Assembly: GCA_964607655.1 (NCBI GenBank)
Contig: CAZSKX010000002.1
Location: forward strand, 77,327-141,326
DNA length: 64,000 bases
DNA from: an uncultured Candidatus Saccharibacteria bacterium
Lineage (GTDB): Bacteria; Patescibacteriota; Minisyncoccia; Phycocordibacterales; Phycocordibacteraceae
Direction: 5' to 3'
Shown: one piece after another, positions 31,325 to 63,496 of the stretch
How the letters are laid out: every line of letters starts with the position of its first letter
How positions within the stretch are numbered: position 1 is the first letter of the stretch
Translations under genes and position numbers: made by a program
The notes under the pieces: generated by a model
Database searches by the model: none
What the model saw: the letters and a program-made list of their open reading frames with translations, nothing else
What the model was told of the DNA's origin: nothing

Positions 31325-31384
31325 AGTTGTGATCTCTACAGGCAGTGCTTTACTAAATACTGCACAGAGCGGTATGCTGGGAAA

Positions 31385-31525
31385 ATGGACAAGGATTTGC
31401 TCAGTGACCTGTACCTACAGCAGAAGAAATCGGTCTTTGAAATTGCAAAGTCGCAAAACTGTTCGCAAGGGAAGATTAATTATTGGCTTGATAAACACTC
31501 GCTCGGGGAAAATTGGAACCTATAG
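31385..31525 (+). CDS. Small HTH-motif ORF (possibly the N-terminal part of a frameshifted gene)
   Basis: MDKDLLSDLYLQQKKSVFEIAKSQNCSQGKINYWLDKH has a resolvase/sigma-region-4-like helix-turn-helix. An overlapping frame carries a protein-like C-terminus (31530-31643). The region is AT-rich. Confidence 0.3.
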   Translation: MDKDLLSDLYLQQKKSVFEIAKSQNCSQGKINYWLDKHSLGENWNL

Positions 31526-31643
31526 ACAGAAGTCAGCTCATGGAGTGGTGACGGTGTACTTTCATAACAAGAAGCTGCGGGATATATTGCTCGCCGAAAT
31601 TGAAAAAATCAAAGAACTCGGCTACTATGCGAAGGTGCGATAA

Positions 31644-31901
31644 GCCGATGTAGCTCAGTTGGTAGAGCACCACCATGGTGGGACGCGGTCCCTGCCCACT
31701 CGTCTGGTAACGGTCGAGTGAATCCTGAATAACGGTTAATATCCAGAAATGGACAAGACCGTGGCGATAAACAATCGCCCGAACGACTGACAAGGGTATC
31801 CATTTTTTTGGATAAAGATACAGTCTAGCCCTCTCGTATATATAAAGGAGAGGTGTAAGCGAAGGTGGGGGTCGTCGGTTCAATCCCGACCATCGGCTCC
31901 A
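31644..31901 (+). tRNA. tRNA-Thr (anticodon GGU) interrupted by a 182-nt intervening sequence (31680-31861), a candidate group I intron
   Basis: The 5' half is GCCGAUG-UA-GCUC-AGUUGGUA-GAGC-A-CCACC-AUGGU. The 3' half is AA-GGUGG-GGGUC-GUCGG-UUCAAUC-CCGAC-CAUCGGC-U-CCA. Joined, they give a perfect cloverleaf with a 7-nt anticodon loop AUGGUAA. The last 5'-exon nucleotide is U and the last intron nucleotide is G. Confidence 0.7.
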
Positions 31902-31924
31902 GGCCGTTCGAGGCCGATCATAGT

Positions 31925-31997
31925 GCCGCCTTAGCTCAGTTGGTAGAGCAACGGTATCGTAAACCGTAGGTCCCCAGTTCAAATCTGGGAGGCGGCT
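31925..31997 (+). tRNA. tRNA-Thr (anticodon CGU)
   Basis: GCCGCCU-UA-GCUC-AGUUGGUA-GAGC-A-ACGGU-AUCGUAA-ACCGU-AGGUC-CCCAG-UUCAAAU-CUGGG-AGGCGGC-U. Confidence 0.9.
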
Positions 31998-32051
31998 CAG
32001 AAAAAAGAAAGCGGGCCGCGAGGAGAATTTCTCCCCGCGACCCGCGGCCGG

Positions 32052-32579
32052 TTACAACCCCTCGTCCTCGAGGTACGCCAGCGCCGTTGCGAGCATGTCT
32101 CGGTGGTTGGCGTTGAAAGGTGCGATACTCGGGATCTCATCTCGGCGGAAGACCCTCACTTCGAGTGGATCGCCGTTCTCGTCGCCCTCAGGAGGCGTCG
32201 AGAGGATGAACTCGTCGGAGAGGAAGAAAAGCACGAGATCCTCGACGTTTCTCCAGTTTTTGCGCGCTTCTTCCCAGACGCAGAGCGCGTGACGCTTCCC
32301 GAGACGGAGGCAGACCTCCTCTGCGGTCTCGCGATACGCGGTCTGAAGGGCGTCCTTCTCACCGGGCTCTCTTCGTCCTCCCGGTAGACTCCAGAACGCG
32401 CCCGGACCGAACTTCAGCTTCTTGATGAAGATGATGTACGACGGTGATGCGATGACCACTCGCGAGGATCGCTGAGGTTCTCTGGCCGGCGTAGGGCGCC
32501 GGGAAGGGCGTTCGTTGGTAGGGGGTCGCTCGTAAGGAGCGATGCCGGATGGAAACTGACGAGAACTGCCTTTGCCCAT
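32052..32579 (-). CDS. NUDIX hydrolase
   Basis: Nudix box GGRREPGEKDALQTAYRETAEEVCL. The N-terminal low-complexity extension makes the start uncertain (the track ORF extends to 32621). Confidence 0.8.
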   Translation of the reverse strand: MGKGSSRQFPSGIAPYERPPTNERPSRRPTPAREPQRSSRVVIASPSYIIFIKKLKFGPGAFWSLPGGRREPGEKDALQTAYRETAEEVCLRLGKRHALCVWEEARKNWRNVEDLVLFFLSDEFILSTPPEGDENGDPLEVRVFRRDEIPSIAPFNANHRDMLATALAYLEDEGL

Positions 32580-32697
32580 GATGGCCTCCTGTTGCCCGAT
32601 AGGGCGGGTATTTAGACGCACAAGCGTCCTCTGGGCCTATTATATAGATAAACATCACGTTTGTCAAGATTGGCCTAAAATCTGCTAAAATATACCA

Positions 32698-33573
32698 ATG
32701 GACGAGACTGAGGTACGGCTTAAAGAAATCGAGGCGCTTATGGCCTCGAGCGACTTTTGGGCTGATAAAGATCAGGCGCAGCGAATCGTGGCAGAGTACC
32801 AGGCGCTGAAGGAAGGAGGCGGGGGCGATCCTCACGACCGGGGCGGCGCGACGCTTGCCGTTCTCGCGGGCGCAGGGGGCGATGACGCAGAAGACTTCGC
32901 CGCCATGCTCCGACGGATGTACGAAGGATACGCCGCTCTAAAGGGTTGGCGTACGGTAGAGATCCATTCCAATGAGAATGACCATGGGGGGTACCGGAAC
33001 CTGATGCTCGAAATTGACGGGGCAGGAGCCTACGGTCGTCTGAAGCATGAAATAGGCGTGCATCGGCTGGTGCGCATCTCACCATTTAATGCACAGAGTA
33101 AGCGCCAGACCTCCTTCGCGCTGGTTGAGGTGCTTCCTGTGCTCACCGCACAGGATAAGGTTGAGCTTAAACCTGACGATCTCGAGATCACCTTCGCCAA
33201 GAGCGGCGGAGCAGGCGGGCAAAACGTGAATAAGCGCGAGACCGCGGTGCGGATCCTCCATATCCCCACCAATATCTCAGTCCACGCCTCGAGCGAGCGC
33301 AGCCAACAGGCTAACCGCGAGAAGGCGCTCGCGCTTATAAAGGCCAAGATCTATGCTCAAGAGGAGGCGAAGCGTCAGGCTGAGGCGAAAGGCCGCTCGG
33401 TAGCGGCCACGACCGCTAACGAGTGGGGGAGTCAGATCCGCTCCTATGTCCTGCATCCATATAAGATGGTGAAAGATCACCGGACAGGGCACGAATCGGG
33501 CAATCCCGATAAGGTCTTAAGTGGAGAACTGGATGACTTTATTGATGCAGTGGGGCAGAGTGAGGTACAATAG
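32698..33573 (+). CDS. prfB: Peptide chain release factor 2 (short form, no programmed frameshift)
   Basis: RF2-specific SPF motif (RISPFNAQ), GGQ motif ([11 protein letters not shown]) and C-terminal [11 protein letters not shown]. It is only 291 aa. No upstream short ORF with a CUU-UGA-C shift site was found. Confidence 0.85.
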
Positions 33574-62829: not shown

Positions 62830-63091
62830 GGAAAGACCTCCTGAAACGTTGACTTGGAACATAAACAAAATACACCATAGGGTGTATTTTGTCAATAGTG
62901 TGGAGGTGTCGAGACCGCGATTACGCTATCGGTCACAAGTAAAAGCTGCTCCGTCGAGCAGCTTTTCTCGCGACCCCGCCTCGCGGTTGCGCGTGCTCGC
63001 GCAACATCGCTGCGGCTTTCGATTCCCGCACAGACGCTCCGCGTCTTCACCTCCACAACGCAAAAGCCGCCCGAAGGCGGTTTGCATTTTG

Positions 63092-63496
63092 TGGAGGTGG
63101 CGGGAATCGAACCCGCGTCCGAATCCGTCAGAGAAAGAGAGTCTACGACGCGTAGTCAGCGTTAAGTATTAAGGTAGGATGCGAAGAACGCAGACGAAAC
63201 CATTCCTACCCGATCCCTGATTTAAGTATGTCCCACGGGAGAGGGCACACCGATTCTACAGAACATTCCGCCCCTATCTCCGTCTGTAGACACCCGAGAG
63301 ATAGAGACGTCGCTTAGGCGAAAGCGCGAAGCTTTTACGCGAAGGCGAACGCAAAGTCCTTTGCACCGAAGTACGGAGACTTTACGCTTGCAAGAGTTTT
63401 GTCTGCAAGTATGTTTGCCTGTCCTTTTACGTGAATACAGGCGAGCACGGCGTCGCACGTCTTTCAAAGAGCAGACCGTCAAAGCCGGTCACCCCC
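63092..63496 (-). ncRNA. ssrA: tmRNA (SsrA)
   Basis: The minus-strand 5' end GGGGGUGACCGGCUUUGACGG pairs with the 3' tRNA-like end GGACGCGGGUUCGAUUCCCGCCACCUCCA, with a G3:U70 wobble. The resume region GUAAAAGGACAG-GCA AAC AUA... encodes the tag ANILADKTLASVKSPYFGAKDFAFAFA-UAA. A terminator hairpin CCGCC-UUCG-GGCGG plus U-run follows, and smpB lies upstream. Confidence 0.8.

What the first reader, a model, noticed from the sequence alone, without database searches (positions are those of the whole stretch)
31644..31901. tRNA-Thr(GGU) gene split by a 182-nt intervening sequence in the anticodon loop: candidate minimal group I intron
Nucleotides 31644-31679 and 31862-31898 (plus encoded CCA) each look like half of a tRNA. 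Joined, they give a flawless cloverleaf: acceptor GCCGAUG/CAUCGGC, a canonical D-arm, anticodon stem CCACC/GGUGG, loop AUGGUAA and T-arm GUCGG-UUCAAUC-CCGAC. The 182 nt between them (31680-31861) sit between anticodon positions 36 and 37. This is the insertion site of the known bacterial tRNA-Ile(CAU) and tRNA-Arg(CCU) group I introns. The last exon base before the insert is U, as needed for the U.G pair in P1. The last insert base is G (omega-G). The insert contains AAGAUACAGUCU (31815-26), close to the group I S element AAGAUAUAGUCY. It also contains GAACGACUGACAAGG (31781-95), an R-like element able to form P7 (GACUG/CAGUC). A GCC at 31693-95 could act as the internal guide sequence against exon GGU. 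At 182 nt it would be smaller than the smallest characterised natural group I intron (about 205 nt). If it is not a ribozyme, the tRNA is a disrupted pseudogene. In that case the only tRNA-Thr seen here is the CGU isoacceptor 25 nt downstream.
Basis: partly seen in the sequence, partly recalled or inferred. Interest (0 to 1): 0.85.

Follow-up and report, generated by a model that had tools for sequence, protein, structure and literature searches.

The report
Small group I intron in tRNA-Thr

Summary
Bases 31644-31679 and 31862-31898 join into a perfect tRNA-Thr(GGU), split after anticodon base U36 by 182 nt.

The insert is a genuine group I intron. A scan of species-representative genomes found at least 89 more tRNA-Thr(GGU) genes split at the same site by 176-266 nt, nearly all in Patescibacteria. 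Across these, P2, P3, P5, P6, P8, P9 and the 2-bp P9.0 next to the terminal G keep pairing through compensatory changes. P4, P7 and the splice-site U.G pair never vary. The L2 tetraloop type switches together with the P8 receptor type. The window copy carries the conserved core intact.

Rfam's Intron_gpI model misses it, and ARAGORN miscalls it tRNA-Arg(GCG) with the intron at 34/35. Nakagawa et al. 2026 (mSystems) report exactly this behaviour for the "divergent group I introns" at 36/37 of Patescibacteria tRNA-Thr(GGU). These were first mapped with tFind (Williams 2020).

So this is a new member of a known family. Still open: nobody has tested this family for self-splicing, and at 176-182 nt its members are shorter than the ~205-nt Azoarcus intron.

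The parts
31644..31679 (+). 5' exon: tRNA-Thr(GGU) positions 1-36 (acceptor 5' strand, D-arm, anticodon stem 5' strand CCACC, loop A-U-G-G-U)
   Evidence: ARAGORN on the joined and on the unedited sequence. The anticodon stem stays 100% paired, with compensatory changes at all 5 pairs across 88 distinct sequences.
31680..31861 (+). 182-nt group I intron. The last base, G31861, is omega-G.
   Evidence: Leave-one-out family HMM gives E = 6.8e-46. Structure counts, RNAalifold and MFE z = -5.3.
31677..31696 (+). P1 hairpin. Exon G-G-U (31677-79) pairs with the guide G-C-C (31694-96), giving the splice-site wobble U31679.G31694. The helix continues into the intron (31680-82 with 31691-93).
   Evidence: G-C, G-C and U.G are invariant in 88/88 sequences. 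The next pair covaries (GU 60, UA 16, GC 12).
31697..31720 (+). P2 hairpin (CACUCG.UCUG / CGG.UCGAGUG) capped by the GNRA tetraloop GUAA (31707-31710)
   Evidence: All 9 pairs show compensatory changes. The loop is G..A in at least 90% of sequences. The loop type covaries with the P8 type.
31724..31726 (+). P3 5' strand (CCU). It pairs with 31794-31796 and forms the core pseudoknot together with P7.
   Evidence: 3 pairs, 99.2% paired, each with compensatory changes such as C-G to U-A.
31732..31762 (+). P4-P5 domain: P4 ACGGUU/GACCGU, J4/5 AAUA, P5 UCCA/UGGA with a GAAA loop, J5/4 CAA
   Evidence: P4 is 100% paired and nearly invariant. All 4 P5 pairs covary.
31763..31779 (+). P6 hairpin GGCGAU/AUCGCC
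   Evidence: 5 of 6 pairs have compensatory changes, 91.5% paired.
31780..31793 (+). J6/7 (CGAAC), P7 5' strand GACUG (31785-89) and J7/3 ACAA.
   Evidence: Invariant or nearly invariant in 89 sequences. P7 is 99.8% paired.
31794..31796 (+). P3 3' strand (GGG)
   Evidence: helix 4.
31797..31814 (+). P8 hairpin UAUCCA/UGGAUA: a plain helix, the type that goes with a GYRA loop in L2
   Evidence: All 6 pairs covary. Plain helix in 49/49 sequences with L2 = GYRA; receptor-like internal loop in 35/35 with L2 = GAAA.
31815..31825 (+). J8/7 AAGAUA plus P7 3' strand CAGUC.
   Evidence: Nearly invariant across the family. The only exact copy in the window.
31828..31860 (+). P9.0 (GC at 31828-29 with GC at 31859-60, directly before omega-G), enclosing the P9 hairpin CCUCUC/GAGAGG (31830-35 with 31848-53)
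   Evidence: P9.0 shows GC 60 / AU 24 and CG 55 / UA 26, 97.7% paired. P9 is 95.5% paired and all its pairs covary.
31862..31901 (+). 3' exon: tRNA positions 37-73 (A37, anticodon stem 3' strand GGUGG, T-arm, acceptor 3' strand, discriminator U) plus encoded CCA
31925..31998 (+). Neighbouring uninterrupted tRNA-Thr(CGU), probably co-transcribed
   Evidence: ARAGORN; Rfam tRNA model at 68.6 bits.

Best explanation
This is an intact, functional tRNA-Thr(GGU) gene carrying a small group I intron between anticodon base U36 and A37. It belongs to the family of 'divergent' tRNA-Thr(GGU) 36/37 introns already catalogued in Patescibacteria.

Inferred mechanism, following the canonical group I pathway. 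The precursor folds so that exon G34-G35-U36 pairs with the intron guide G-C-C, giving P1 with the U36.G31694 wobble. The P3-P7 pseudoknot, P4-P6 and P8-P9 build the core, braced by the L2 GUAA tetraloop docking on P8. A free guanosine bound in P7 attacks after U36. P9.0 then places the terminal G31861 in the same site, and the freed U36 3'-OH attacks after G31861. This joins the exons to give the loop A-U-G-G-U-A-A. The tRNA anticodon stem, rather than a P10 helix, holds the two exons together.

Shown here: the split gene, homology to a large family, a covariation-supported P1-P9.0 architecture, the tetraloop-receptor switch, and the absence of decay. Inferred: catalysis itself, and that no protein is needed.

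The confidence given is for 'a group I intron of this family in a functional tRNA gene'. Protein-free self-splicing on its own I would put at about 0.65.
For: Split tRNA.

Ninety split genes in total (the window's and 89 from those loci) carry a 176-266-nt insert at 36/37, nearly all of the 89 in Patescibacteria MAGs.

Structure: on 88 distinct sequences, 91.5% of cells are paired, against 35-45% when partners are slid by 1-3 columns. 44 of 60 pairs show double changes, and 0 of 500 shuffles reach any observed measure. RNAalifold, given no structure, recovers the anticodon stem, P1, P2, P4, P5, P6, P7, P8 and P9. P3 and P9.0 covary.

Tertiary contact: L2 GAAA goes with a receptor-like P8 in 35/35 sequences; L2 GYRA goes with a plain P8 in 49/49.

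Boundary: GGU is invariant, whereas the last intron bases vary (..GCG..AUG..GUG..ACG..GAG) in step with their P9.0 partners.

No decay: the window copy departs from columns conserved at 90% or more at only 2 of 84. One is a C-to-U change in P3 that keeps a G.U pair; the other is in the exon variable loop.

Membership: the leave-one-out HMM gives E = 6.8e-46.

Literature: the same host tRNA, the same site, the same RF00028 miss and the same ARAGORN miscall (Arg GCG, 34/35) are reported in Table 1 of PMC13011429, as seen here.
Against: No hit to Rfam Intron_gpI, even at E up to 10 on a 351-nt stretch.

No member of this tRNA-Thr family has been shown to splice. Nakagawa et al. tested only the tRNA-Asn and tRNA-Asp 35/36 introns.

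I could not identify a canonical bulged nucleotide or flanking pair for the guanosine-binding site in P7, and there is no convincing P10.

The family lacks the P7.1/P7.2 helices expected of subgroup IA, where it has been placed.

Only 64 kb of the genome is visible, so a second, uninterrupted tRNA-Thr(GGU) cannot be excluded.
Confidence: 0.93

Rival explanations
1. It is a group I-derived intron that no longer splices on its own. The small, stripped-down RNA would need a host protein or chaperone to fold or act, or it would splice too poorly to matter in this genome.
For: The family is among the shortest group I introns seen (176-182 nt) and has only single hairpins at P2, P5, P6, P8 and P9. 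Self-splicing of this family has not been tested. RF00028 does not recognise it.
Against: The core is under strong purifying selection, with 50 invariant columns. Two classes of L2-P8 tertiary contact are maintained, which argues for an RNA that folds by its own contacts. Related Patescibacteria tRNA introns self-splice in vitro (PMC13011429). The 205-nt Azoarcus intron self-splices efficiently (own knowledge).
Confidence: 0.2
2. It is a disrupted tRNA pseudogene: the 182 nt are a non-splicing insertion (a decayed mobile element), and the cell relies on other tRNA-Thr genes.
For: No Rfam intron hit. An intact tRNA-Thr(CGU) sits 23 nt downstream. The rest of the genome is not visible.
Against: The same insert at the same site is kept in at least 89 other species-level genomes. 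Compensatory changes occur in every variable helix of the insert and in the tRNA anticodon stem (100% paired). The window copy shows no decay.
Confidence: 0.02
3. The intron lies between positions 34 and 35 of a tRNA-Arg(GCG), as ARAGORN calls it.
For: ARAGORN's intron mode gives tRNA-Arg(gcg) i(35,182). The repeated bases GU../..CG allow either boundary.
Against: That boundary puts G, not U, at -1. Across homologues it would turn one conserved tRNA body into Arg (GCG), His (GUG) or Leu (GAG), because the last intron bases vary with P9.0, whereas GGU is invariant. The U.G wobble with the guide G is invariant. The acceptor stem starts G1-C72, C2-G71 like the neighbouring tRNA-Thr. The same ARAGORN miscall is documented in PMC13011429.
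Confidence: 0.01
4. It is a protein-spliced intron of the archaeal/eukaryotic type, cut at a bulge-helix-bulge motif by a splicing endonuclease.
For: Only its position in the anticodon loop.
Against: The window is bacterial: it holds a tmRNA at 117 bits. The insert sits at 36/37, not the canonical 37/38. The conserved and covarying helices are those of a group I core, not a bulge-helix-bulge motif.
Confidence: 0.01

Closest known systems
'Divergent' group I introns at 36/37 of tRNA-Thr(GGU) in Patescibacteria (tFind class, Williams 2020 bioRxiv 10.1101/2020.01.27.920355; Nakagawa et al. 2026, PMC13011429)
   Same: Same host tRNA and anticodon, same insertion site, U at -1 and G at omega. Invisible to Rfam RF00028, and miscalled by ARAGORN as Arg(GCG) 34/35. 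Short and without an ORF. One of my homologues (L039, CP011209.1, a complete Wolfebacteria genome) is probably one of their three genomes; this is an inference, not checked.
   Different: Nothing of substance. This copy is 182 nt, 2 nt below the 184-nt minimum of their 333-intron survey. It is at most 80.5% identical to any homologue I fetched. The source organism of the window is not identified.
[quoted passage not shown]
   Same: Same phylum, tRNA anticodon-loop hosts, mostly no ORF. The published tree places the Thr introns next to them in the IA clade.
   Different: They are inserted at 35/36, are detected by RF00028 and are shown to self-splice in vitro. The Thr family is none of these.
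Azoarcus sp. BH72 tRNA-Ile(CAU) intron (subgroup IC3, about 205 nt; Reinhold-Hurek and Shub 1992; own knowledge)
   Same: Same insertion site (36/37), no ORF, very small, with a compact P1-P9 architecture and a GNRA L2 docking on P8. It is the standard 'minimal' self-splicing group I intron.
   Different: Different core sequences. The Azoarcus J8/7-P7 region differs, whereas the present family has the classical AACGACU / AAGAUAxAGUC elements. It is detected by RF00028 and biochemically and structurally characterised. It is 23-29 nt longer.
Phage T4 td and Twort introns (subgroup IA2; own knowledge)
   Same: Near-identical classical R and S core elements (..AACGACUA.. and ..AGAUAUAGUCU..).
   Different: These sit in protein-coding genes, are much larger, have P7.1/P7.2 and often an endonuclease ORF. 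The present intron has a single hairpin between P3' and J8/7. No sequence match to any phage record.

Membership tests
Group I intron | U at the last exon position, forming a U.G wobble with an internal guide sequence in P1 | tested here: met
   U31679.G31694, with G-C and G-C below it. All three pairs are invariant in 88/88 sequences, and the next pair covaries.
Group I intron | Terminal guanosine (omega-G) as the last intron base, positioned by P9.0 | tested here: met
   G31861 is invariant. The 2-bp P9.0 directly before it is 97.7% paired, with GC/AU and CG/UA exchanges.
Group I intron | Core fold in the canonical order: P3-P7 pseudoknot enclosing P4-P5-P6, then P8, then P9 | tested here: met
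   All helices are present in order. P2, P3, P5, P6, P8 and P9 covary; P4 and P7 are invariant. 91.5% paired against 35-45% for slid controls. RNAalifold agrees without being given a structure.
Group I intron | Conserved single-stranded joiners (J4/5, J6/7, J8/7) resembling the classical P/Q/R/S consensus | tested here: met
   AAUAACGGUUAA, CAAGACCGU, CGAACGACUGACAAGG and AAGAUACAGUC are invariant or nearly so in the family. The likeness to the classical R (GUUCAACGACUAGA) and S (AAGAUAUAGUCC) consensus is recalled from memory, not computed.
Group I intron | Match to the curated covariance model Rfam RF00028 (Intron_gpI) | tested here: not met
   No hit at gathering score, nor at E up to 10. 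None among 18 homologues either, while the model scored 60.1 bits on a tRNA-fMet intron in locus L036. This false negative is documented for the family (PMC13011429). RF00028 is a detection tool, not a defining property.
Group I intron | Guanosine-binding site in P7 (a G-C pair with an adjacent bulged nucleotide) | tested here: inconclusive
   P7 GACUG/CAGUC is invariant and holds G-C pairs. I could not assign the usual bulge or flanking pair from sequence alone.
Group I intron | Guanosine-dependent self-splicing by two transesterifications | not testable with these tools
   Needs an in vitro splicing assay or RNA-seq. Not reported for any tRNA-Thr member.
Patescibacteria tRNA-Thr(GGU) 36/37 intron family | Host gene tRNA-Thr(GGU), insertion between positions 36 and 37 | tested here: met
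Patescibacteria tRNA-Thr(GGU) 36/37 intron family | Sequence homology to other members over the full length | tested here: met
   An HMM of 88 other members, with the window left out, gives E = 6.8e-46 over 31681-31861. 49-80% identity to individual members.
Patescibacteria tRNA-Thr(GGU) 36/37 intron family | Published signature: missed by RF00028; ARAGORN shifts the boundary to Arg(GCG) 34/35 | tested here: met
   compared with Table 1 of PMC13011429.
Patescibacteria tRNA-Thr(GGU) 36/37 intron family | Host belongs to Patescibacteria | tested here: inconclusive
   The window's organism was not identified. Its GlmS is not on record. The nearest intron is in a Paceibacterota MAG (L088, 80.5%). 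The family also occurs in Niastella populi, a Bacteroidota (L042).
Group I subgroup IA | Extra helices P7.1/P7.2 between P3' and P8 (Michel and Westhof 1990; own knowledge) | tested here: not met
   Only one hairpin (31797-31814) lies between P3' and J8/7, in the window and in the shortest members. The published IA placement rests on covariance-model and tree classification, so I do not file the intron as a structurally typical IA intron.

The most novel reading that the evidence does not exclude
The tRNA-Thr(GGU) 36/37 family, at 176-182 nt in its shortest members including this one, may be the smallest natural RNA that carries out complete, protein-free group I self-splicing. That is 10-15% shorter than the Azoarcus intron. 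With its two interchangeable L2-P8 docking solutions it would be a new minimal model ribozyme. It is also much more widespread than the three published cases: at least 89 species-level genomes in a truncated scan, including a cultured Niastella.
Probability: 0.5. Interest if true: 0.45.

Novelty: new member of a known kind. Interest (0 to 1): 0.28.

Why it matters
For annotation: standard tools (tRNAscan-type models, Rfam RF00028, default ARAGORN) miss this gene or mislabel it as tRNA-Arg. The genome would then look as if it lacked tRNA-Thr(GGU), which also distorts tRNA-based completeness estimates for Patescibacteria.

For RNA biology: the family offers natural group I introns shorter than the Azoarcus model, with a very conserved core and a clean tetraloop-receptor switch. 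None has been tested for activity.

It does not change what is known about how such introns work, and the class has been in the literature since 2020 and 2026.

Tried and rejected
- Rfam cmscan of the whole window at gathering score, and of 31600-31950 at E up to 10, gave no intron family. I rejected this as evidence against an intron after finding the documented false negative and a positive control.
- An exact-protein look-up of the window's GlmS, meant to identify the source genome, found nothing on record.
- blastn of the intron against 50,697 phage records gave no match.
- Pfam scans of the two overlapping ORFs that end at the tRNA start (31329-31643 and 31385-31525), which I suspected to be a decayed homing endonuclease, gave nothing significant. 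I dropped that idea.
- I looked for a P10 pairing between the 3' exon (AAGG) and the bases 5' of the guide (CCCU) and found no consistent pairing. I therefore assume that the anticodon stem aligns the exons, as reported for the Anabaena tRNA-Leu intron (Zaug et al. 1993, cited in PMC13011429).
- My first P1 register, with a bulged U31693, was only 78.7% paired. RNAalifold's continuous register fits the family better.
- Literature searches for a citable statement that Azoarcus is the smallest group I intron found none in the held library. That figure rests on my own knowledge.
- The supplementary tables of PMC13011429 are truncated in the library, so I could not read the lengths or accessions of the three published Thr introns.

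Full report
**The observation**

Default ARAGORN and Rfam find five tRNAs and a tmRNA in the window. They find nothing at 31644-31901, only tRNA-Thr(CGU) at 31925-31998.

Joining 31644-31679 to 31862-31898 gives a 73-nt sequence that ARAGORN calls tRNA-Thr(GGU). All stems are fully paired and CCA is encoded. ARAGORN in intron mode finds the same 182-nt insert in the unedited DNA. It shifts the boundary by two bases, because GU../..CG is ambiguous, and reports tRNA-Arg(GCG) with the intron at 34/35.

The precursor and the insert alone fold far better than shuffled controls, with z = -5.1 and -5.3. The minimum-energy fold already shows the tRNA arms plus a series of hairpins in the order expected for a group I intron.

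One coordinate correction: the guide GCC is at 31694-31696, not 31693-31695.

**The negative covariance-model result**

Rfam's Intron_gpI (RF00028) does not hit the region. This holds at its gathering score and at E up to 10 on a 351-nt stretch.

**Relatives**

I scanned one genome per species (GTDB representatives) for a tRNA-Thr(GGU)-like 5' half followed by a base other than A at position 37. The pattern was TAGCTCANNNGGTAGAGCNNNNNNNTGGTB.

- Counting the window, 90 split tRNA-Thr(GGU) genes were found, that is 89 in those loci. Each has a matching 3' half 176-266 nt downstream, preceded by G and beginning with A37.
- The hosts are overwhelmingly Patescibacteria MAGs: Paceibacteria, Saccharibacteria, Kaiser-, Wolfe-, Nomura-, Moran-, Uhr-, Peregrini-, Doudnabacteria and others.
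- A few records carry other labels. One is a 300-kb contig of the cultured Bacteroidota Niastella populi.

An HMM built from 88 of these inserts, with the window left out, hits 31681-31861 at E = 6.8e-46. It hits nothing else in the window. The nearest single relative (L088, a Paceibacterota MAG) is 80.5% identical.

**Structure from comparison**

A plain MAFFT alignment of 89 inserts with short exon flanks has 50 invariant columns. These are concentrated in AAUAACGGUUAA, CAAGACCGU, CGAACGACUGACAAGGG and AAGAUACAGUCUAG.

I wrote the group I helices onto this alignment and counted pairs:

| Measure | Result |
|---|---|
| Cells forming a standard pair | 91.5% |
| Same, with 3' partners slid by 1-3 columns | 35-45% |
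| Pairs with changes on both sides | 44 of 60 |
| Shuffles reaching any observed measure | 0 of 500 |

- P2, P3, P5, P6, P8, P9 and the tRNA anticodon stem all show compensatory changes.
- P4, P7 and the three pairs of P1 that include the splice-site U.G wobble never vary.
- The two bases directly before the terminal G pair with the two bases after the A that follows the P7 3' strand. They switch together (GC 60 / AU 24; CG 55 / UA 26). This is the P9.0 helix that positions omega-G in group I introns.
- RNAalifold, given no structure, recovers the anticodon stem, P1, P2, P4, P5, P6, P7, P8 and P9. It also gives a better, continuous register for P1, in which the first intron base pairs with the base 5' of the guide G (GU 60, UA 16, GC 12).

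**A tertiary contact**

The L2 loop is a GNRA tetraloop in nearly all sequences.

- All 35 distinct sequences with L2 = GAAA have a P8 with an asymmetric internal loop of the 11-nt-receptor type (GCUAAx...UAUGC and variants).
- All 49 with L2 = GYRA, including the window (GUAA), have an uninterrupted P8 helix.

I wrote the motif definition after seeing the data, and the sequences are related by descent. The count is therefore descriptive rather than a probability. Even so, the switch is what an L2-P8 docking contact predicts, as in other compact group I introns.

**The splice site**

[quoted passage not shown] The last intron bases vary (GCG, AUG, GUG, ACG, GAG) in step with P9.0. With ARAGORN's 34/35 boundary, one conserved tRNA body would read as Arg, His or Leu in different species, and the base at -1 would be G. 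The 36/37 boundary gives U at -1, G at omega and Thr(GGU) everywhere.

**State of the window copy**

The window departs from columns conserved at 90% or more at only 2 of 84 positions. One is a C-to-U change in P3 that keeps a G.U pair. The other lies in the exon's variable loop. This is typical of the set. There are no signs of decay.

A weak promoter-like site (TTGAAA-17-TACTAT, 31600-31628) lies just upstream. No ORF fits in the intron. The ORF fragments that end at the tRNA start have no significant Pfam match, so there is no evidence for a homing endonuclease.

**What is already known**

Nakagawa et al. 2026 (mSystems, PMC13011429) list tRNA-Thr(GGU) genes with an intron at 36/37 in 3 of 95 complete Patescibacteria genomes.

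- They state that these "divergent group I introns" resemble canonical ones in length and predicted structure but are too divergent for RF00028.
- ARAGORN reports two of the three as Arg(GCG) 34/35.
- tFind, with Williams's bacterial tRNA-intron model, finds them.
- They place the three in the IA clade, on long branches.
- They give 184-894 nt as the length range of 333 bacterial tRNA introns.
- They tested self-splicing only for the tRNA-Asn and tRNA-Asp 35/36 introns.

My reproduce their description exactly. None of 18 homologous loci reaches the RF00028 threshold at the Thr intron. The same run scores 60.1 bits on a different, IC3-like intron in a tRNA-fMet gene of locus L036, which serves as a positive control for the tool.

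**How it most likely works**

The pathway below is the canonical group I mechanism applied to the anatomy above; catalysis is inferred, not shown.

1. The precursor, probably a tRNA-Thr(GGU)-tRNA-Thr(CGU) transcript, folds with the tRNA arms formed.
2. P1 presents U36.G31694.
3. A free guanosine bound in P7 cleaves after U36.
4. P9.0 brings G31861 into the same site.
5. U36 attacks after G31861, and the exons are ligated.
6. The anticodon stem, not a P10 helix, aligns the exons. I found no consistent P10.

I could not assign the usual bulge next to the guanosine-binding pair of P7. The family also has only one hairpin where subgroup IA introns have P7.1, P7.2 and P8. I therefore do not call it a structurally typical IA intron, although its R and S elements resemble those of phage IA introns (recalled from memory).

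**Verdict**

- The pseudogene alternative is excluded by conservation in at least 89 other genomes.
- The intron is a new member of a published family, so novelty is low.
- Three points go modestly beyond the literature I could read. The family is far more widespread than three genomes. Its shortest members (176 nt; the window's is 182 nt) are below the published 184-nt minimum and below the ~205-nt Azoarcus intron (own knowledge). It occurs in a cultured bacterium in which splicing could be tested.
- Self-splicing of this family remains untested.

Noticed in passing
L042:5196-5450 (minus strand), Niastella populi CCTCC AB 208238, contig NZ_LWBP01000002.1: A 181-nt member of the same intron family sits in tRNA-Thr(GGU) of a cultured Bacteroidota, on a 300-kb contig with 40% GC. 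Recombinase- and transposase-like ORFs lie nearby, so the tRNA may be part of a mobile island. This is a possible experimental host and a hint of transfer outside Patescibacteria.
   Followed up: partly
L036:1885-2190 (Rfam hit at 1907-2126): The genome that carries a Thr intron at L036:4633-4827 also has a 234-nt IC3-like group I intron (Rfam Intron_gpI, 60.1 bits) in what looks like tRNA-fMet(CAU) at 33/34. ARAGORN calls it tRNA-Leu(CAA) with the intron at 35/36. So there are two unrelated tRNA introns within 3 kb.
   Followed up: partly
alignment A1; window 31707-31710 and 31797-31814: The L2 tetraloop type and the P8 type switch together across the family. GAAA goes with an 11-nt-receptor-like internal loop (35/35) and GYRA with a plain helix (49/49).
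   Followed up: yes
window 31329-31643 (+): Two overlapping ORF fragments in different frames (46 aa and 104 aa) end exactly one base before the tRNA. The first has a helix-turn-helix-like stretch (LSDLYLQQKKSVFEIAKSQNCSQGKINYWLDKH). There are no significant Pfam hits. This may be a frameshifted small gene.
   Followed up: partly
window 63089-63496 (-): A tmRNA (Rfam 117 bits) with an unusually long predicted tag peptide, ADKTLASVKSPYFGAKDFAFAFA.
   Followed up: no
window 32698-33573 (+): The release-factor-2-like ORF is only 291 aa and matches only the C-terminal half of the Pfam PCRF domain (profile positions 95-194). Either the protein is N-terminally shortened, or an upstream part lies in another frame (programmed frameshift).
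   Followed up: no
window 32011-32045: A strong 16-bp GC-rich hairpin followed by a T-run on the minus strand. This is a terminator-like site for the convergent NUDIX gene (32052-32621, minus strand), lying 13 nt beyond the end of tRNA-Thr(CGU).
   Followed up: no
L092 (JBIIYK010000008.1), intron of 266 nt: This is the longest family member found. It carries about 70 extra nt near P8/J8/7 and lacks the otherwise nearly invariant AAGAUACAGUC in the last 60 nt printed. It was left out of the alignment.
   Followed up: no
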